In this document: in pieces, positions 8,214 through 47,493 of the stretch
Position numbering within the stretch: the stretch's first letter is position 1
Layout of the letters: each line of letters opens with the position of its first letter
From: a virus
Lineage: Duplodnaviria > Caudoviricetes
Virus record (IMG/VR): IMGVR_UViG_3300020159_001695
Span: 1-54,884 of that record
DNA: 54,884 nt
Strand: one strand, 5' to 3'
Program-made: the position numbers and the translations under genes
The notes under the pieces: generated by a model
The model's input: only the letters and a program-made list of their open reading frames with translations
What the model was told of the DNA's origin: nothing
Database searches by the model: none

Positions 8214-8239
8214 AAAAACCCCTATTAAGGGGTTTTTTT
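8214..8239. terminator. Bidirectional intrinsic terminator
   Basis: aaaaacccct-atta-aggggttttt between convergent genes. Confidence 0.8.
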
Positions 8240-8831
8240 ATTTAAAATACTTTAAGATTTTTTCCTTTATACCTGATTGTTTTATTCCTTCATTAGATTT
8301 TCGTGTATGAACAAAATTAGTTAAACCATTTTCGTTAAATATATTACCTGAAATAGGTTCATATATACCAAGATTTAAGTCATCAACAGCAACCCAATTA
8401 GATACTTCCGGATGTTGTTCTAACCAATACTTAATTTCAATAACCCTTTCTTGTTCTAACATAGCGTAGTTATTAAATGTTGCCCACCATTTAGGATCAA
8501 TATCTTTAGTGAATGGAGTGATACCAATAGGAGTTTTTATAATACCTTGTGATAAATAATACTCACCCAACTCTTCTAATGTAGCGTGATATCTCCAATC
8601 AGATGACACCACAATTTCAGCACCTGTCTCCACCAATATTTCATTTAATATTTTAACCGCCTTTTTATCAAAATCGTCAAATCTAACCCCAACCGGAGCA
8701 TCACTAAGAAATTTAGAAGATTCCGGATTACTTGAACGATATTTAGACCATTTCTTTTGCCTACCACCCCAATTACTGGATAGACATATTACACCATCAT
8801 TATCCAAAAATAAAATTGATTTTTTTTCCAT
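8238..8831 (-). CDS. HAD phosphatase of the Swiss-Army-Knife RNA-repair type (HAD_SAK_2-like)
   Basis: FLDNDGV (DxDG), IVVSSDWR, R..EI..WL, WVAVDD motifs. Confidence 0.82.
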   Translation of the reverse strand: MEKKSILFLDNDGVICLSSNWGGRQKKWSKYRSSNPESSKFLSDAPVGVRFDDFDKKAVKILNEILVETGAEIVVSSDWRYHATLEELGEYYLSQGIIKTPIGITPFTKDIDPKWWATFNNYAMLEQERVIEIKYWLEQHPEVSNWVAVDDLNLGIYEPISGNIFNENGLTNFVHTRKSNEGIKQSGIKEKILKYFK

Positions 8832-9270: not shown

Positions 9271-9486
9271 ATGGAAAATATAGGAAATGGTAAAATTGTC
9301 AGCGTTCCAAAGGCGGTATTGGAACAACCTGATTATCAATGTGAATGTGGGAGCACCACATTTAAAGAGCTTTTAAAGGTTAAAAAAATATCCGCATTGC
9401 TATCCCCTACTGGTAGGGAGGCTTTAATACCTTACGAGGTGTTAGTATGTAATAAATGTGAAAAAGAAATTGATTTAAAACTATGA
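9271..9486 (+). CDS. Small zinc-finger protein
   Basis: CECG...CNKC pairs flanking KISALLSPTG.E. Confidence 0.7.
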   Translation: MENIGNGKIVSVPKAVLEQPDYQCECGSTTFKELLKVKKISALLSPTGREALIPYEVLVCNKCEKEIDLKL

Positions 9487-9818
9487 TAATTAACTTAGAG
9501 GGTATAAATAAGTTTGATTTAAACCAAGAAAAACTTAGTATGATTTGTTTCACCGCTAAATGGTGTGGTCCTTGTAATCATATGAAACCAACAATTGAAG
9601 AAATATCGGAAGAATATAAAGATTCGGTTGATGTTTATAATGTTGATGTTGATGTTAATAAAGAATTTGTGGATTCAACATTCCGTATTCCTATTGTTCC
9701 AGCATTTTACTTTGTAAAGAATGAAATATTAATGATGAATAAGGAAGGTTCTTTAGTGAAAGAACAAATAATTGAAATTATAAAAGAAATTGAAAATAAT
9801 GAAAGTAATACAAAATAA
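9483..9818 (+). CDS. trxA: Thioredoxin
   Basis: FTAKWCGPC active site, VDVD, cis-Pro loop IVPAF. Confidence 0.9.
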   Translation: MIINLEGINKFDLNQEKLSMICFTAKWCGPCNHMKPTIEEISEEYKDSVDVYNVDVDVNKEFVDSTFRIPIVPAFYFVKNEILMMNKEGSLVKEQIIEIIKEIENNESNTK

Positions 9819-10104
9819 CGAATTAAATTTAAACAATGAAAAGGTAAGTATATTATACTTCAGTGCATCTTGGTGTGGTCCTTGTAAAATATTAAAACCT
9901 GTAATGGAAGAAATTTCAAAAGAAATGTCTGATAATATTGATATTAATTATGTCGATATCAATGATAATATGGAATTGTCCGGTAAATATGAGATTATGT
10001 CAGTCCCAACACTTTTATTCGTTAAAGAAGGTGAGATTAAAAATAAAATTGTGGGATTGCAACCAAAAACAAATATTGTTCATGCAATCAATAACATCCA
10101 ATAA
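9799..10104 (+). CDS. trxA: Thioredoxin (second copy)
   Basis: FSASWCGPC and IMSVPTLL; ATG at 9799. Confidence 0.92.
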   Translation: MKVIQNNELNLNNEKVSILYFSASWCGPCKILKPVMEEISKEMSDNIDINYVDINDNMELSGKYEIMSVPTLLFVKEGEIKNKIVGLQPKTNIVHAINNIQ

Positions 10105-21735: not shown

Positions 21736-22554
21736 TTAAATATATTTAAACTCATCGTAAAACCAAGAAAAGTTTTGTCTTATCCAATTGGAAGCATTTA
21801 CACCTAAAACTTCTTTATAATCATTCTTTAATGGCTCTAATTTAGGTTTTATTACATGATCTCCATATATACCATAAACAGCATCATCTTCTTGCGTTAT
21901 TTGTTGAATATTATTAAAATCGTGTTGATAATATGGAACTTCCAAATAATTATATATTCGTTTCATTTCAGCATCAGGTTGTCTGCATAAATCCTCAAAC
22001 TTAACAAACAACATTTTTTTATTTATACCTTCTTTTACAATCTGATATAATCTTTCTACTGCCAAACCTACTGGTTGTCCTTGTGTCCAAATATCAATTC
22101 TTTTTTCAGTTGTTGTTCCTTGCATTTGTGCGTGATCTACAATACCTGAATCTAAATGTTGATTTTTTCTAAAGTTTTTTTCCATTGAAGCATAAATCGA
22201 TCTTAAATCTCTTACCATACAAATAACTTTTGGTTCAGGATAAAATGAGTTTAAGAATCCATAATGAATACCCCAACCTCTAGATTTATCCATTACATAT
22301 TTTTTATCTGTAATTGCATTGAAATAACCCTCAACACCACCCTTACAAAAGGCTGTAAAACCTTCCTTCATTAAATCTGAATCTTGTGCTTTAAACTCAG
22401 GCGATGTACTAAAATTTGCTCTTGAAGCATAAACTAATTCTAATACACCTGATGTTGGTGTAACATAAAAATCGGGATTTTGTCCCATTATATTTTGTAA
22501 TAAAGTTGATCCGCTTCTGGGTAAAGAACTCTGAAAGAATATTTTTTCTACCAT
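21736..22554 (-). CDS. PAPS-dependent sulfotransferase
   Basis: 5'-PSB loop SSLPRSGSTLLQNIM, DKSRGW, 3'-PB MVRDLRSIYAS, KFEDL...P...M.RIY.YL. Confidence 0.92.
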   Translation of the reverse strand: MVEKIFFQSSLPRSGSTLLQNIMGQNPDFYVTPTSGVLELVYASRANFSTSPEFKAQDSDLMKEGFTAFCKGGVEGYFNAITDKKYVMDKSRGWGIHYGFLNSFYPEPKVICMVRDLRSIYASMEKNFRKNQHLDSGIVDHAQMQGTTTEKRIDIWTQGQPVGLAVERLYQIVKEGINKKMLFVKFEDLCRQPDAEMKRIYNYLEVPYYQHDFNNIQQITQEDDAVYGIYGDHVIKPKLEPLKNDYKEVLGVNASNWIRQNFSWFYDEFKYI

Positions 22555-32978: not shown

Positions 32979-33593
32979 ATGATAATATTTGGATTTTACA
33001 TACCGACACCAGTTATAGTATCGCTTTTAGGGATTATTAGCGGAGCTATTGGATACATAGTTAAAGTTTATATGGATAAACATAAAAACAACACTAAAAT
33101 TGAAAAAATAAAACGTAATATCACCAAATCTAAACAGATTGTTGGTAAGCTACAACAAATATTAGAAATCACAAATGCTGATAGAGTATCCATCACAGTT
33201 CTTCATAATGGAGGTGTTTTTTATAATAAGAAAGGACAAAAAGTTGAATTTACTAAAGGTAGTATGATTTATGAAGTTGTATCTTCAGGAATATCTATTG
33301 AAAATATGGATTTTAAGGATGTATTACTAACGCCATTCTCAGATCACTTTATGCCGTTCTTTGATGATAAAAGATATTCATTAGATACCAATGAAACAGA
33401 ACACCCTTCTACGTGGAAAAACTATCTTTTTAATAAAGGAATTAAACACGATTATGGTTTTGTTATTGAAAATATTGAAGGCTCAATATTTGGATTTGTT
33501 AGGGTTTCATTCATTAAAACAAGAAAGAAATTGAATGAAGAACAAATAGATGAAATTGAAAAATTATCTTATTTGGTTTCAGGGTATCTATAA
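32979..33593 (+). CDS. Membrane-anchored GAF-like protein, possible T4 T-type holin
   Basis: Single N-terminal TM helix followed by a soluble domain (ADRVSI..LHNGG...SMIYE...G.IFGFV.V.F). Confidence 0.5.
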   Translation: MIIFGFYIPTPVIVSLLGIISGAIGYIVKVYMDKHKNNTKIEKIKRNITKSKQIVGKLQQILEITNADRVSITVLHNGGVFYNKKGQKVEFTKGSMIYEVVSSGISIENMDFKDVLLTPFSDHFMPFFDDKRYSLDTNETEHPSTWKNYLFNKGIKHDYGFVIENIEGSIFGFVRVSFIKTRKKLNEEQIDEIEKLSYLVSGYL

Positions 33594-33620
33594 AAAAAAC
33601 CCAACATCTCTGTCGGGTTT
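33592..33620 (-). terminator. Terminator of the tmRNA transcript
   Basis: Minus strand aaacccgaca-gaga-tgttgggttt followed by a U run. Confidence 0.8.
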
Positions 33621-33703
33621 CTGAGGCGATCGAATCTTATCGCTCCACCAATCCATTTTCTAACATTTAAAGTTTGATAAAAAGGATAAAACCTCAACCT
33701 TTA

Positions 33704-33777
33704 TTAACATCTTAGCCAAATAATTAATTATTTGTTTCTACCAATTACCTCGTAGCGGTGTGTTAAAATCAATCGGC
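33704..33777 (-). ncRNA. HDV-like (theta-type) self-cleaving ribozyme at the tmRNA 3' end
   Basis: P1 GCCGAUU/AAUUGGU with G1-U wobble; P2 UUAACAC/G(A)UGUUAA; P3 ACC/GGU; L3 GCUACGA; P1.1 CU/AG; P4 CAAAUAA/UUAUUUG; J4/2 GCUAA with catalytic-position C at 33715. Confidence 0.85.
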
Positions 33778-34147
33778 TGGACTTTGGGGGATTCGAACCC
33801 CCGTTCCCGTAATTTGTAATCAATTAAATTATTTACAAGCTTAGGTTATTTTCTTACAACCAAATATCCCTCTTATTTTAACACCAATCAGGAAAATGTG
33901 TGATAGTTATTAACTACTCTACCAAAAGGGTTTGCTGTGTTTGGCTTAAAGCCAAATTCACTTAAGCTAACTCAAGTTCAGCTTCTTGAGTTTTGAAGCT
34001 CTTCATAAGTGAAGTTGGGAGGCTCATCATGTCCTCTGAATTGTAACCGTTGCCAGTTGATTTTTTTGCTTCAGTTTTTAAAGACTTAGTGCAGGTCTTG
34101 CTTGTTTAAAAGGCTCAAACATTACAGGTCAAAACCAGTAAAAGCCC
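33778..34147 (-). ncRNA. ssrA: tmRNA
   Basis: Acceptor stem GGGCUUU/AAAGUCC-A with G3-U70; 5' CUGGUUUUGAC; T arm GGGGG-UUCGAAU-CCCCC; helix 2 CCUGUAAU/AUUACGGG; tag frame 34054-33962; 370 nt; CCA not encoded. Confidence 0.93.
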
Positions 34148-34157
34148 ATATGTTATA

Positions 34158-34165
34158 CAAAGATA
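34158..34165 (-). promoter_or_regulatory. Bacteroidota -7 element for tmRNA, overlapping a TATTTAT motif
   Basis: Minus strand TATTTATCTTTG ending 10 nt before the mature 5' G. Confidence 0.6.
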
Positions 34166-34174
34166 AATATTATT

Positions 34175-34534
34175 TTATTTAATATCAACAACAATTTTAT
34201 CTTTTTTTGTTTTTTCTTTTGGAACTGAAACAGTTAAAATACCATTCTCCAATTTAGCTGTAATGGATTTTACACCATTAGGGAAATAAATTGTTCTATT
34301 AGATTTGATTTCCTGACCATTTCTTTTACCTTCAACTATCAATTGTTTCCCTTCAATAGTTACCGATAATTCTTCTTTCTTAAATCCAGGTAAGATATAT
34401 TCAATACCATAAGATTCTTCATCCTCAACCATATTTGTTTCAATAAAGTTTTTAGTTAAAACCTCAAAAGGTGTTCTAAAAAATAAACTGTTAAAAGTTT
34501 TTTCAATCCTTTCCAAATTTTTTAATGAATACAT
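34175..34534 (-). CDS. Small heat-shock protein (Hsp20/alpha-crystallin)
   Basis: LPGFKKEELSV......LIVEG and ITAKLENGILTVSVPK. Confidence 0.9.
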   Translation of the reverse strand: MYSLKNLERIEKTFNSLFFRTPFEVLTKNFIETNMVEDEESYGIEYILPGFKKEELSVTIEGKQLIVEGKRNGQEIKSNRTIYFPNGVKSITAKLENGILTVSVPKEKTKKDKIVVDIK

Positions 34535-34603
34535 TTCTTTATTTTGTTTAAGTTTAATTTATTATTAGTGTATATATAATAAATTAAACCCCATAAGTCA
34601 AAT

Positions 34604-34912
34604 ATGCTTTTAGAAACAACCAAAGAAAAAGATAAAATTACAAGTATCTATGAATCATCTAATATCTATAAATCAGTATATAAATTTTTAGATAATGATT
34701 TATTCATCACCTTCAATAATGGTAATATCTACAAATATTTAAATGTTGATATGCCCACATTCTTGAAATTACAAGAATCTGAAAGTATTGGTAAGTTTTT
34801 CTCTGCTAATATAAGAACAAAATTTGATTTTGAAAAAGTAGGGTCCGAAGACCCTAAAATTATTGTTGAAGATGTTAAAAGGTTAAAATCTAAATTAGGT
34901 TTTAGTTCCTAA
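34604..34912 (+). CDS. KTSC-domain protein
   Basis: SSNI....Y......L.ITFNNG.IYKY.NV....F..L...ESIGKFF..NIR. Confidence 0.85.
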   Translation: MLLETTKEKDKITSIYESSNIYKSVYKFLDNDLFITFNNGNIYKYLNVDMPTFLKLQESESIGKFFSANIRTKFDFEKVGSEDPKIIVEDVKRLKSKLGFSS

Positions 34913-46224: not shown

Positions 46225-46650
46225 TTACTTTATTTTTATGTACTTATACCAAACTCTTTCGTGTAGGAAATAAATAACGGGCTTTAATACTAATTCACCC
46301 ACACCTAACATTGAAGCCAATGCTATTGGAGCTCCTAAACAATACGCAGTTATTACAGTTGTTAAAGTCCCCAAAAACCTGTATGATATTGTTTTTAATA
46401 AATGTCTTTTAAATGCCGAATCTTTTGGTGGTGTTGTAATGTAAGCAATATTATCTTTAATAACACAATTACCTTTACAAGTAATATGCCACTTATAACC
46501 TAAACCATCCATATGATCTTTTGTTGTGAATACCTCACCATCAACAAAAATATCTGAAACCAATATTTCTTCACCATCATCAGGTATTAATCGCCATCTT
46601 ACCTCTTCTGTTGTTGAATTTGTATTAAATCTAATTTTATAAGTTTTCAT
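46225..46650 (-). CDS. DUF2061-domain membrane protein with N-terminal extension
   Basis: C-terminal RHLLKTISYR.LGTLTT...E.VLK..IYFLHERVW. Confidence 0.8.
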   Translation of the reverse strand: MKTYKIRFNTNSTTEEVRWRLIPDDGEEILVSDIFVDGEVFTTKDHMDGLGYKWHITCKGNCVIKDNIAYITTPPKDSAFKRHLLKTISYRFLGTLTTVITAYCLGAPIALASMLGVGELVLKPVIYFLHERVWYKYIKIK

Positions 46651-47054
46651 TATAATTTACCTTCTGTTCTTAATTGCTCTCTTATTTTTGTTGCCGAAAT
46701 ATTGGCGATATCTAATGGTGGTAAATGTTCAATAATATCATATCCAACACCTCTACCAAACTCTACTGAACAAATATCAGGAATTACCATAATTTTAACT
46801 TTACCCTCAACACATTCCGTATAATAATGTTCCATAATCATAGCTTCCACTTGTTTAGCTGTAAATGGATTTTTTTCATCTGGTTGAATATCTCTAATAC
46901 AAATTAAGATATTTTTACCTTCATTCATTGCTTGTTGAAACATCTCTTGATGTCCTTTATGTAATGGTTGCCATCTACCAATAAACATTGCGTATTGTCC
47001 TTCTTTACGTTCTAATGATGACTGAACGTGTAATTTTTTATACCAATCCGACAT
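46650..47054 (-). CDS. HxGH nucleotidyltransferase (cytidylyltransferase-like)
   Basis: FIGRWQPLHKGH, NPF, GRGVGY, ISATKIR. Confidence 0.88.
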   Translation of the reverse strand: MSDWYKKLHVQSSLERKEGQYAMFIGRWQPLHKGHQEMFQQAMNEGKNILICIRDIQPDEKNPFTAKQVEAMIMEHYYTECVEGKVKIMVIPDICSVEFGRGVGYDIIEHLPPLDIANISATKIREQLRTEGKL

Positions 47055-47493
47055 ATTCTATAATCTCCTTTATACATTCTTCTGGTGTTATATTTGTTGT
47101 ATTCATATCCAAATAATTTGATACAGGTTTTTGAAAATCCTCAACGTGGAATTGTTCCCTACCCCTTATTTCTGTTGTATGAACATAAACCTCAAAAACA
47201 TCTTTTGTGTTATTTTTAAATTCTTCTCTTATATCTAAATAAGGTGTCATAAGCGACACTACAACGTGAAATCCTTTATTTTGTAGATATTTAGCAATTA
47301 CTTGAGCATTACGAATATTTTGTTCTCTACCTGTTCTTGAATAATCTTTATTTATTGTAAGATTTCTTAAATCATCGCCATCAATGTGAAATACATCATT
47401 ATGGGCTGTTTGATCGATATGCTGTTCTAATAATTTAGCGAGAACTGTTTTACCATGACCCGCTTGTCCGATTAACCATATAATTTTAGTCAT
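47038..47493 (-). CDS. cysC: Adenylyl-sulfate (APS) kinase
   Basis: WLIGQAGHGKT P-loop, IDGDDLR, DYSR.GR..NI, VVSLMTPY...R, EVYV. Confidence 0.87.
   Translation of the reverse strand: MTKIIWLIGQAGHGKTVLAKLLEQHIDQTAHNDVFHIDGDDLRNLTINKDYSRTGREQNIRNAQVIAKYLQNKGFHVVVSLMTPYLDIREEFKNNTKDVFEVYVHTTEIRGREQFHVEDFQKPVSNYLDMNTTNITPEECIKEIIEYVGLV

What the first reader, a model, noticed from the sequence alone, without database searches (positions are those of the whole stretch)
33704..33778. HDV-like (theta) ribozyme positioned to cut exactly at the discriminator base of a phage tmRNA
Seen: on the minus strand the tmRNA acceptor strand ends AAAGUCC-A (33778) with no CCA. The next base starts GCCGAUU GAUU UUAACAC ACC GCUACGA GGU AAUUGGU AG AAA CAAAUAA UUAA UUAUUUG GCUAA GA UGUUAA. 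All HDV elements occur in order: 7-bp P1 with G1-U wobble, P2, 3-bp P3, 7-nt L3 containing CG, P4 and J4/2 GCUAA. P1.1 shows a compensatory change (CU/AG instead of CC/GG). One deviation: the first L3 base is G rather than the usual U. Established: HDV-family ribozymes cleave 5' of G1, and theta ribozymes were described as 3'-trailer processors of phage tRNAs. Inference: here the substrate is a tmRNA, giving a self-maturing ribosome-rescue RNA. I do not know of this pairing being described, but I could not search.
Basis: partly seen in the sequence, partly recalled or inferred. Interest (0 to 1): 0.95.

Follow-up and report, generated by a model that had tools for sequence, protein, structure and literature searches.

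The report
HDV-like ribozyme abutting a phage tmRNA
A fragment of a giant freshwater phage carries a ribosome-rescue RNA (tmRNA) gene followed at once by a small self-cutting RNA of the hepatitis-delta type, placed so that its cut would make the tmRNA's exact 3' end; I found no report of this pairing, and most sister phages lack the ribozyme.

Summary
Rfam calls a tmRNA at 33775-34147 (-) at 67.3 bits. It calls an HDV-F-prausnitzii-type ribozyme at 33703-33777 (-) at 48.7 bits against a cut-off of 44. Ribozyme nucleotide 1 (33777) directly follows the tmRNA discriminator A (33778), and no CCA is encoded. All 25 pairs of P1, P2, P3, P1.1 and P4 are standard, and the catalytic C lies at 33715.

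The window is a piece, about 17% complete, of a huge myophage. Of 11 homologous tmRNA loci, 3 carry the ribozyme. These 3 loci are 2 distinct versions, in two tmRNA subclades, always at discriminator +1. The other 8 lack it. The two versions differ at 4 of 74 positions, and all 4 changes keep the fold, including one compensatory P4 pair.

Most likely it is a cis 3'-end maker for the tmRNA, as theta ribozymes are for phage tRNAs. It is an accessory, possibly mobile, element and not a required one.

Three caveats apply:
- Cleavage has not been shown.
- The first L3 base is G. The matching G/G mutant of the HDV ribozyme is 470-fold slower.
- The 2',3'-cyclic phosphate end would need healing before CCA addition.

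I found no published tmRNA-HDV pairing. I rate it a new variant of a known kind, interest about 0.6.

The parts
34158..34165 (-). Promoter-like motif fitting TAnnTTTG, 10 nt upstream of tmRNA nt 1
   Evidence: Present at the same distance in all 10 loci printed. L013 was not printed; its tmRNA is identical to that of L012. The surrounding upstream sequence diverges. Reading it as a Bacteroidota-type -7 box is from recall.
33778..34147 (-). tmRNA gene, 370 nt, ending at discriminator A 33778, with no encoded CCA
   Evidence: RF00023 67.3 bits. G3:U70 acceptor stem read. Syntenic homologues in 10 other loci.
33962..34054 (-). Tag reading frame of the tmRNA, 30 codons plus stop (protein P0001)
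   Evidence: Translation. The frame is aligned to the Rfam resume-codon region. Substitutions among the three subclades are mostly synonymous, including a Ser-to-Ser change between the two codon families, and the stop is kept.
33704..33777 (-). HDV-like self-cleaving ribozyme, nt 1-74; predicted scissile bond between 33778 and 33777
   Evidence: RF02682 48.7 bits against a cut-off of 44. All 25 pairs standard. Family covariation.
33740..33777 (-). P1 (33777-33771 with 33746-33740), enclosing J1/2, the P2 5' strand (33766-33761), P3 (33759-33757 with 33749-33747) and L3 (33756-33750)
   Evidence: Coordinates from the ruler. Pairs checked. P1 and P2 covary across 11 family members.
33738..33739 (-). 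3' partners of P1.1, pairing with L3 nt 23-24 (33755-33754)
   Evidence: C-G and U-A are invariant in 11 of 11 sequences.
33717..33734 (-). P4 hairpin, 7 bp with a 4-nt loop
   Evidence: One A-U to G-C compensatory change against L022/L026.
33710..33716 (-). J4/2 with the catalytic cytosine at 33715 (nt 63)
   Evidence: These positions are invariant, apart from one nearly invariant A, in alignment A1.
33704..33709 (-). P2 3' strand
33660..33703 (-). Window-specific spacer after the ribozyme. Together with the ribozyme it replaces a 22-nt trailer of the ribozyme-less sister loci.
   Evidence: Alignment A2 and the flank print.
33621..33649 (-). Conserved trailer hairpin shared with the ribozyme-less relatives
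   Evidence: Paired positions change together between subclades A and B (by eye).
33592..33617 (-). Intrinsic terminator-like hairpin plus T run that closes the transcription unit
   Evidence: Fold (z -3.12 for 33585-33703). The simple consensus scan did not list it.
8238..8831 (-). HAD_SAK_2 (RNA-repair HAD phosphatase-like) gene; only a weak candidate for healing a 2',3'-cyclic phosphate end
   Evidence: Pfam PF18143, E 6.5e-21. It is also present in ribozyme-less relatives, so it is not specifically linked to the ribozyme.

Best explanation
A dedicated promoter drives a single transcript that holds the phage tmRNA, an HDV-like (F. prausnitzii/theta-type) ribozyme, a structured trailer and a terminator. 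As the ribozyme folds co-transcriptionally, its J4/2 cytosine (33715) and a bound Mg2+ catalyse attack of the 2'-OH of the discriminator A (33778) on the phosphate before G 33777.

This releases a tmRNA that ends exactly at the discriminator with a 2',3'-cyclic phosphate, and a 5'-OH ribozyme-trailer fragment. The cyclic phosphate must then be opened and removed by a host or phage enzyme. CCA is added by a nucleotidyltransferase, and the tmRNA is charged with alanine.

The ribozyme thus makes the same cut that a protein endonuclease such as RNase Z makes on CCA-less precursors, and it makes the tmRNA's 3' end independent of the downstream sequence. It is an optional, probably horizontally exchanged accessory of this phage group, not an obligatory part of the tmRNA gene.

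Shown here: the fold, its placement, its recurrence and its substitution pattern. Inferred: cleavage, end healing, CCA addition and any benefit to the phage.
For: Fold and placement:
- Both RNAs pass Rfam gathering scores and abut with no spacer. The tRNA model also ends at 33778.
- All 25 pairs of the five helices are standard, and the core positions invariant in 11 family members are all present.
- On the 11-sequence alignment, 99.0% of 196 cells pair. Slid controls give 29-55%. 10 of 18 pairs change on both sides, and 0 of 500 shuffles reach the observed values.

Recurrence:
- The same ribozyme sits at discriminator +1 of a tmRNA that is only 90% identical, with a different acceptor stem and T arm (L022 and L026, RF02682 50.2 bits).
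- The two versions differ at 4 of 74 positions: a G.U to G-C change in P1, a compensatory A-U to G-C pair in P4, and one L4 loop base. In simulation, 4 random substitutions keep all pairs in 4.2% of trials, and also keep the invariant core in 1.2%. Two of the four changes break the alternative fold that is the window's MFE.

Context and precedent:
- A canonical tRNA-linked relative shows the same +1 geometry: in L027 the tRNA-Cys ends at 2371 and the ribozyme starts at 2370.
- Theta ribozymes with this geometry self-cleave in vitro, 4 of 4 tested (section 8 of PMC10879173).
- No tmRNA locus of the 11 encodes CCA, so a cut after the discriminator is the cut that maturation needs.
- A promoter-like motif and a terminator bracket the unit.
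- The ribozyme-bearing allele is not an assembly oddity. 8 of 24 listed runs hold 90% or more of the sampled words of 33600-34200 (studies P1-P5; X1 may be the source).
Against: - Cleavage was not observed. The RNA-library contigs cover only the tmRNA body and say nothing about ends.
- 8 of 11 homologous tmRNA loci (5 of 7 distinct tmRNA sequences) lack the ribozyme. Some of these have tmRNAs 98-100% identical to ribozyme-bearing ones. The tmRNA therefore matures without it.
- The first L3 base is G, paired in space with the conserved L3 G. In the antigenomic HDV ribozyme the equivalent G23/G28 mutant keeps only slow activity: k2 0.0037 against 1.74 per min, a 470-fold drop. All 508 natural HDV sequences have U/G (passages of PMC3386971).
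- The window's version scores only 4.7 bits over the Rfam cut-off, while ten other family members score 68-79.
- In a nested-only energy model an alternative fold (-13.4 kcal/mol) beats the native P1+P3+P4 (-9.8) in the window. In L022 the native fold is the MFE.
- A 2',3'-cyclic phosphate blocks CCA addition until it is healed (recalled chemistry). The one RNA-repair-like gene in the window also occurs in ribozyme-less relatives.
Confidence: 0.6

Rival explanations
1. Hitch-hiking mobile insertion. The ribozyme is active, or was recently, but it sits at the tmRNA 3' end because this is a hot spot for mobile DNA. It spreads between co-circulating phages by recombination or homing-endonuclease-driven co-conversion. 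Its self-cleavage merely makes the insertion harmless to the tmRNA and gives no benefit over host processing.
For: - The distribution is patchy: 3 of 11 loci, spread over two subclades whose ribozyme-less members have 98-100% identical tmRNAs.
- The ribozyme-less trailer start is shared by subclades A, B and C, so absence looks ancestral.
- In L026 an HNH/homing-endonuclease-like ORF (phrog_559, E 1.3e-14) lies directly after the ribozyme and replaces the trailer hairpin and terminator.
- The window is mosaic: its upstream flank is of the B type and its tmRNA body of the A type.
- The two ribozyme versions are 95% identical while the tmRNAs are 90% identical.
Against: - The left junction is exact to the base in both tmRNA backgrounds, although only 5 nt next to it are shared. 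This needs selection for a functional tmRNA end or a site-specific mechanism.
- Compensatory and pair-preserving substitutions show continued selection on the fold.
- The window has no endonuclease gene next to the ribozyme.
Confidence: 0.2
2. Crippled or very slow ribozyme. The fold is retained, but the G/G L3 variant and the weak A-U-rich helices make cleavage too slow to matter. The tmRNA 3' end is still made by host endo- and exonucleases that cut or trim through the ribozyme sequence.
For: - The HDV G23/G28 mutant is 470-fold slower.
- The Rfam score is low at 48.7 bits.
- An alternative fold is more stable than the native nested helices in the window.
- Ribozyme-less relatives show that host processing suffices.
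Against: - The same combination, L3 first base G with last base A, recurs in an unrelated, high-scoring family member (L007 and L009b, 68.4 bits) and in L022/L026. That makes 3 of 11 distinct aligned sequences, so it looks like a maintained natural variant and not a lesion.
- No core position is damaged.
- The substitutions between the two tmRNA-linked versions all preserve the fold.
- In co-transcriptional order P1 and P3 form before the competing strand is made (inference).
Confidence: 0.13
3. The ribozyme serves the downstream RNA, not the tmRNA. Cleavage would create a 5'-OH end for the trailer RNA (the conserved hairpin at 33621-33649), or would act as an insulator or termination aid for read-through transcription.
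For: - The trailer hairpin is conserved, with paired changes, between subclades.
- Ten other family members follow a short promoter-proximal hairpin, not a tRNA. The family is therefore not tied to tRNA-like substrates.
Against: - L022/L026 keep the ribozyme but have lost the trailer hairpin and terminator.
- The constant feature of the two versions is the junction with the tmRNA discriminator.
Confidence: 0.05

Closest known systems
Theta ribozymes (Kienbeck et al. 2024, PMC10879173; sections 7, 8, 10 and 13 and passages read)
   Same: Both are minimal HDV-like ribozymes in Caudoviricetes whose G1 lies at the 3' end of a tRNA-type acceptor stem. The associated RNAs mostly lack an encoded CCA (only 4.5% of theta-linked tRNAs encode it). 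The proposed role is 3'-trailer removal in cis. The promoter-like motif here would fit a Bacteroidota host (recalled consensus), the phylum predicted for about 90% of theta hosts.
   Different: - The substrate is a 370-nt tmRNA, not a tRNA. The paper's main text has 0 mentions of tmRNA, transfer-messenger or ssrA. [quoted passage not shown]
- The runs that hold this DNA are labelled freshwater, lake or sediment. The paper describes the function as so far limited to mammalian gut phages.
- The first L3 base is G.
- The exact RNArobo descriptor is in a figure and a supplement that I could not read.
Rfam RF02682, HDV ribozyme from F. prausnitzii (minimal HDV-like ribozymes)
   Same: The match is full length (model positions 1-74) and above the gathering score. 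The core is identical: P3, the P1.1 partners and J4/2.
   Different: - The score is much lower than for ten other members (48.7 against 68-79 bits).
- The junction between P1.1 and P4 is one nucleotide shorter.
- P1 and P4 are A-U rich.
- G1 pairs with U, as in the tRNA-linked L027. In 8 of 11 aligned members G1 pairs with C.
Endonucleolytic 3' processing of CCA-less tRNA precursors by RNase Z (recalled textbook knowledge, no call)
   Same: The cut falls directly after the discriminator of a precursor without encoded CCA, and CCA addition follows.
   Different: Here an RNA catalyst acts in cis. The product carries a 2',3'-cyclic phosphate in place of a 3'-OH, so an extra healing step is needed.
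Group I introns in tmRNA T-loops (PMC11915505, passages read)
   Same: This is the other known case of a catalytic RNA built into a tmRNA gene. It too is patchily distributed and sometimes comes with homing endonuclease genes.
   Different: Those are self-splicing introns inside the T loop. This is a self-cleaving ribozyme outside the mature RNA, at its 3' end. That paper, covering 97,179 tmRNA sequences, has 0 occurrences of 'ribozyme'.
tmRNA genes of huge phages (Al-Shayeb et al. 2020, PMC7162821, passages read)
   Same: A phage with a genome of several hundred kb carries its own tmRNA.
   Different: - That survey assigned tmRNAs with ARAGORN, which misses this one.
- The passages read, all those holding 'tmRNA' or 'SmpB', do not mention 3'-end processing.

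Membership tests
HDV-like ribozymes (Rfam RF02682 HDV-F-prausnitzii) | Covariance-model score at or above the curated gathering score | tested here: met
   48.7 bits against 44, full-length match 1-74. The second version, L022/L026, scores 50.2 bits.
HDV-like ribozymes | Nested double pseudoknot: P1 of 7 bp starting at G1, then P2, a 3-bp P3, a 2-bp P1.1 and P4 | tested here: met
   All 25 pairs are standard. P1 and P2 covary across the family, and P3 and P1.1 are invariant.
HDV-like ribozymes | Catalytic cytosine at the start of J4/2 | tested here: met
   C at nt 63 = 33715. The column is invariant in 11 of 11 aligned sequences.
HDV-like ribozymes | L3 U/G trans Watson-Crick pair (genomic HDV U20/G25, antigenomic U23/G28) | tested here: not met
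   The first L3 base is G (33756) and the G partner is kept (33751). The HDV G/G mutant is 470-fold slower but not dead. The same G variant occurs in 3 of 11 distinct aligned family members.
HDV-like ribozymes | Mg2+-dependent self-scission 5' of G1, abolished by changing the catalytic C to U | not testable with these tools
   This needs in vitro transcription. RNA-library contigs cannot show ends.
Theta ribozymes (Kienbeck 2024) | Cleavage site within +/-5 nt of the 3' end of a tRNA-type RNA | tested here: met
   G1 is discriminator +1 of the tmRNA's tRNA-like domain. The partner is a tmRNA, which that paper's tRNAscan-SE step would not report.
Theta ribozymes (Kienbeck 2024) | Match to the final RNArobo descriptor, with nucleotide constraints set at more than 97% conservation | not testable with these tools
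   The descriptor is given only in Fig. 2b and Supplementary Fig. 6. Figures are not held and supplements are closed. The G at the first L3 position might fail it.
tmRNA (Rfam RF00023) | Covariance-model score at or above the gathering score | tested here: met
   67.3 bits against 47. Of the 10 relatives, 7 pass (55.6-69.9 bits) and 3 fall just below (44.5-45.4 bits).
tmRNA | Alanine identity (G3:U70), discriminator A, T arm, and a tag reading frame ending in a stop | tested here: met
   Read. The frame is conserved, with mostly synonymous changes, in three subclades. ARAGORN does not call it.
tmRNA | Partner protein SmpB available, from phage or host | not tested
   No SmpB family was seen among the 55 window ORFs scanned with Pfam. 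The window is only about 17% of the genome and the host is unknown.

The most novel reading that the evidence does not exclude
The ribozyme is a portable '3'-end cassette' that moves between co-circulating giant phages, possibly by co-conversion with a homing endonuclease gene. It uncouples tmRNA maturation from host nucleases and from downstream sequence. It releases the tmRNA in a latent form blocked by a 2',3'-cyclic phosphate. Healing by a phage RNA-repair phosphatase, followed by CCA addition, would then gate when phage-directed ribosome rescue switches on during infection. The natural G/A L3 variant would be a distinct catalytic-core solution within the HDV family.
Probability: 0.12. Interest if true: 0.8.

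Novelty: new variant of a known kind. Interest (0 to 1): 0.6.

Why it matters
HDV-like ribozymes have few assigned biological roles. The 2024 theta-ribozyme work tied them to tRNA 3' ends in gut phages. A tmRNA substrate in a freshwater giant phage would widen that role in three ways:
- from decoding RNAs to the ribosome-rescue RNA;
- from gut to aquatic viromes;
- it suggests that part of the unexplained 'non-tRNA-associated' theta hits could be tmRNA-linked.

The natural alleles with and without the ribozyme, on tmRNAs that are 98-100% identical, are a ready-made experiment on what a cis ribozyme adds over host processing. The recurrent G variant at a core position that is invariant in HDV offers a test of how fixed the L3 metal-binding pair really is.

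Tried and rejected
Searches for further examples:
- blastn (distant mode) of 33650-34200 against 50,697 phage records gave no match.
- Pattern scans for a T arm, an acceptor end and a theta core in viral contigs gave 0 hits. A looser scan gave 3 hits, and 0 of 3 were real by Rfam and ARAGORN.
- These scans have low power. The positive-control pattern for any tRNA-linked theta ribozyme found only 1 locus, L027, and the core-only pattern found 9. The window's own record is left out of such scans.
- The genome-contig scan gave 13 hits. None had an HDV or tmRNA match at the site.
- A scan for the G/A L3 core returned only L007 and L009, already known.
- The five related phage records hold no HDV match at E up to 1. 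Neither the window's record nor the four related records searched (G001-G004) holds a tRNA other than the tmRNA's own tRNA-like end.

RNA evidence:
- Of 4 RNA runs laid, 3 gave contigs. All 4 pieces lie inside the tmRNA body (33805-34127) and none covers the ribozyme or the ends.
- Contigs cannot show ends, and DNA may be present in such libraries, so this neither supports nor contradicts cleavage.

Other checks that led nowhere or were set aside:
- The HAD_SAK_2 gene was considered as a ribozyme-linked healing enzyme and rejected as specific, because it also occurs in ribozyme-less relatives G002 (97% identity) and G005 (71%).
- The simple terminator scan listed nothing in 33400-34700, although folding shows a terminator-like hairpin.
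- Weak Rfam matches in 33300-34300 (snoRNA and plastid families, E 0.13-0.69) were taken as chance.
- Pfam gave nothing for the L026 endonuclease-like ORF. PHROGs did.
- The supplementary data files of PMC10879173, which list 7,704 non-tRNA-associated theta hits, could not be read. They may already contain tmRNA-linked examples unrecognised as such.
Full report
WHAT IS THERE

On the minus strand Rfam finds two RNAs at their curated thresholds (repeated). One is a tmRNA (RF00023, 33775-34147, 67.3 bits, cut-off 47). The other is an HDV-like ribozyme of the F. prausnitzii type (RF02682, 33703-33777, 48.7 bits, cut-off 44, E 5.3e-06 for the window against all 4227 families).

Read from the ruler, the tmRNA runs from G 34147 to the discriminator A 33778. 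Its acceptor stem includes the G3:U70 wobble that marks alanine acceptors. The next three bases are not CCA. The very next base, G 33777, is ribozyme nucleotide 1. The tRNA model, which matches only the tmRNA's tRNA-like end (27.5 bits, below its cut-off of 29), also stops at 33778. ARAGORN reports no tmRNA or tRNA in the window.

ANATOMY OF THE RIBOZYME

With nt 1 = 33777, the helices are:
- P1: 1-7 with 32-38, including G1.U38
- P2: 12-17 with 69-74
- P3: 19-21 with 29-31
- P1.1: 23-24 with 40-39
- P4: 44-50 with 55-61

L3 is 7 nt, and J4/2 starts G-C with the catalytic C at nt 63 = 33715. All 25 pairs are standard.

I aligned 11 of the 14 family copies in hand. I left out L026, L008 and L009b because they are identical to L022, L003 and L007. 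In this alignment the window has every invariant core position. Counting P1, P2, P3 and P1.1 on it gives 99.0% of 196 cells paired, against 29-55% when partners are slid. 10 of 18 pairs change on both sides, and 0 of 500 shuffles reach the observed values. P4 could not be counted in this way because the aligner misplaces it. By eye each member has its own P4 hairpin.

It is simply the family norm.

CONTEXT

The window is a whole virus record, estimated about 17% complete. It carries a T4-type major capsid protein, a prohead protease, tail sheath and tail tube genes and has about 30% G+C. It is therefore a piece of a huge myophage.

The tmRNA lies between an Hsp20 gene (34175-34534, minus) and a convergent 204-codon gene (32979-33593, plus). 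A motif fitting TAnnTTTG lies at 34165-34158, 10 nt before tmRNA nt 1, in all 10 loci printed, while the rest of the upstream sequence diverges. I recall this as the Bacteroidota -7 promoter box. That is a lead to the host, not a result. A conserved hairpin (33649-33621) and a terminator-like hairpin with a T run (33617-33592) follow. The unit reads: promoter, tmRNA, ribozyme, trailer, terminator.

The tmRNA's tag frame (34054-33962, 30 codons, P0001) is kept in all three subclades with mostly synonymous differences. This argues that the tmRNA is functional.

RELATIVES

A neighbouring protein and a tmRNA-specific pattern retrieved 10 further loci: five virus contigs and five metagenome contigs. 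All carry the syntenic tmRNA. The tmRNAs fall into three subclades:

| Subclade | Loci | Identity | Ribozyme present in |
|---|---|---|---|
| A | window, L012, L013, L025 | 98-100% within | window |
| B | L016, L022, L023, L026 | 98.7-100% within; 90% to A | L022, L026 (identical to each other) |
| C | L014, L015, L024 | 79% to A and B | none |

The ribozyme is thus present in 3 of 11 loci, or 2 of 7 distinct tmRNA sequences. It starts each time at discriminator +1. The other 8 loci have no HDV match at E up to 0.01, and the five virus records have none at E up to 1. They also have no room for one: in L012 only 22 nt separate the tmRNA from the conserved trailer.

The ribozyme-less trailer begins similarly in A, B and C, so absence looks ancestral. 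None of the 11 loci encodes CCA.

SIGNS OF SELECTION ON THE FOLD

The A and B versions of the ribozyme differ at 4 of 74 positions:
- nt 35, which turns G4.U35 into G4-C35 in P1;
- nt 50 and nt 55, which turn an A-U pair of P4 into G-C;
- nt 53, in the P4 loop.

In simulation, four random substitutions leave every pair intact in 4.2% of trials, and also leave the invariant core intact in 1.2%.

In a nested-only energy model the window's minimum-energy fold is an alternative helix between the P1 strand and the P4/J4/2 region (-13.4 kcal/mol, against -9.8 for P1+P3+P4; z only -1.70). In L022 the native fold is the minimum (-14.1), and two of the four substitutions break the alternative helix. 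The comparison therefore supports the HDV fold, and it suggests that the window's version is the weaker folder of the two.

THE L3 DEVIATION

The first L3 base is G where 8 of 11 family members have U. This position and the conserved L3 G correspond to the U/G trans pair of the HDV ribozymes. In the antigenomic HDV ribozyme the G/G combination is one of only four mutant pairs of that position that keep activity, with k2 470-fold below wild type. All 508 natural HDV sequences have U/G (passages of PMC3386971). By that analogy the window's ribozyme could be slow.

Against a simple lesion, the G comes together with an A at the last L3 position in all three distinct sequences that have it: the window, L022/L026 and the unrelated L007/L009b (68.4 bits). 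The U-type members have U or C at the last position. It looks like a maintained natural variant, but its rate is unknown.

MOBILITY

In L026 a 227-codon ORF on the opposite strand (489-1172) matches phage HNH/homing endonuclease families (phrog_559, E 1.3e-14). It lies directly after the ribozyme, where the other loci have the trailer hairpin and terminator.

The window's upstream flank is of the B type while its tmRNA is of the A type, so these phages recombine. Gain by exchange is therefore plausible. The exact junction in two backgrounds that share only 5 nt next to it then needs selection for an intact acceptor stem, or a precise mechanism.

END CHEMISTRY (inference from established HDV chemistry, recalled)

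Cleavage leaves a 2',3'-cyclic phosphate on the tmRNA and a 5'-OH on the ribozyme. CCA addition needs a free 3'-OH, so a healing step is required.

The window encodes a HAD_SAK_2 domain protein (8238-8831, E 6.5e-21), a family named for RNA-repair proteins. The same gene is found in ribozyme-less relatives at 97% and 71% identity, so there is no specific link. I saw no CCA-adding enzyme, RNA ligase or SmpB among the 55 ORFs scanned. About five sixths of the genome is missing.

HABITAT AND EXPRESSION

Of 24 runs listed, 20 hold part of 33600-34200 and 14 hold half or more of its sampled words. 8 hold 90% or more (studies P1-P5; X1 may be the source). These 8 must include most of the ribozyme-specific words. 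Labels are freshwater, lake water or sediment.

Of four RNA runs laid, three gave contigs. All lie within the tmRNA body (33805-34127), two with no differences. This fits a stable expressed tmRNA but says nothing about its ends or about the ribozyme.

WIDER SEARCHES

I found no other tmRNA-ribozyme pair in the collections as held. The power of these searches is low, because the control pattern for tRNA-linked theta ribozymes found a single locus (L027). In L027 the ribozyme starts one base after the tRNA-Cys, the same geometry as here.

LITERATURE

- The theta-ribozyme paper (PMC10879173; abstract, sections 7, 8, 10 and 13 and passages read) never mentions tmRNA and detected partners with tRNAscan-SE only. 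It left 526 (annotated databases) and 7,704 (combined data) hits as non-tRNA-associated, most of them more than 200 nt from an ORF. It describes the function as so far limited to gut phages.
- The tmRNA database paper (PMC11915505, passages read) has no occurrence of 'ribozyme' and knows only group I introns in the T loop.
- The huge-phage paper (PMC7162821, passages read) lists phage tmRNAs found with ARAGORN.
- Searches combining tmRNA with theta ribozyme, HDV-like, self-cleaving or bacteriophage returned no paper on the pairing. I judged them by titles and abstracts, and for one preprint by passages.
- Subscription journals and supplements were not searched.

VERDICT

The best reading is a cis-acting 3'-end maker for a phage tmRNA. 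It is a new substrate and habitat for a known ribozyme class, present as an optional, probably exchanged accessory. Activity, its rate given the L3 variant, and any benefit remain to be shown.

Noticed in passing
L003-L011 (e.g. L010:420-584, L003:375-538, L007:5410-5575): Ten HDV-F-prausnitzii-type ribozymes (68-79 bits) in nine virus contigs follow neither a tRNA nor a tmRNA. Each follows a short hairpin of roughly 35-45 nt that lies just downstream of a TAnnTTTG-like motif. The ribozyme would release a tiny promoter-proximal hairpin RNA of unknown function. G1 pairs with C in these, not with U.
   Followed up: partly
window 33962-34054 (-): The tmRNA tag frame is unusually long at 30 codons and is conserved with mostly synonymous changes in three subclades. 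ARAGORN does not detect this tmRNA at all, so surveys that rely on ARAGORN would miss this group.
   Followed up: partly
L026:489-1172 (-): An HNH/homing-endonuclease-like gene (phrog_559, E 1.3e-14) is inserted directly after the tmRNA-ribozyme pair. It overlaps the ribozyme's last 13 nt on the other strand and replaces the trailer hairpin and terminator found in the sister loci.
   Followed up: partly
window 33621-33649 (-) and the matching parts of L012, L016, L023, L025: A conserved hairpin lies in the tmRNA trailer, between the tmRNA (or the ribozyme) and the terminator. Its paired positions change together between subclades. No Rfam family matches it.
   Followed up: no
window 34148-34230 versus L012, L016, L022: The sequence upstream of the window's tmRNA is nearly identical to that of subclade B loci, while the tmRNA itself belongs to subclade A. 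This is a recombination mosaic.
   Followed up: no
L023:1947: This ribozyme-less subclade B locus has T in place of A at the discriminator position of the tmRNA.
   Followed up: no
window 8238-8831 (-): A HAD domain of the 'Swiss Army Knife' RNA-repair family (PF18143, E 6.5e-21) occurs in a phage structural-gene region. It is conserved in two related phage records.
   Followed up: partly
window 21736-22554, 46650-47054, 47038-47493 (all -): A sulfotransferase, a cytidylyltransferase-like/ATP-sulfurylase-like protein and an APS kinase are scattered among virion genes. Together they suggest phage-encoded sulfate activation and sulfation.
   Followed up: no
window 9483-10104 (+): Two overlapping tandem thioredoxin genes (PF00085, E 6e-20 and 1.3e-23).
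   Followed up: no
window 34175-34534 (-): An Hsp20/alpha-crystallin gene lies directly upstream of the tmRNA gene on the same strand. A protein-quality-control gene thus sits next to the ribosome-rescue RNA.
   Followed up: no
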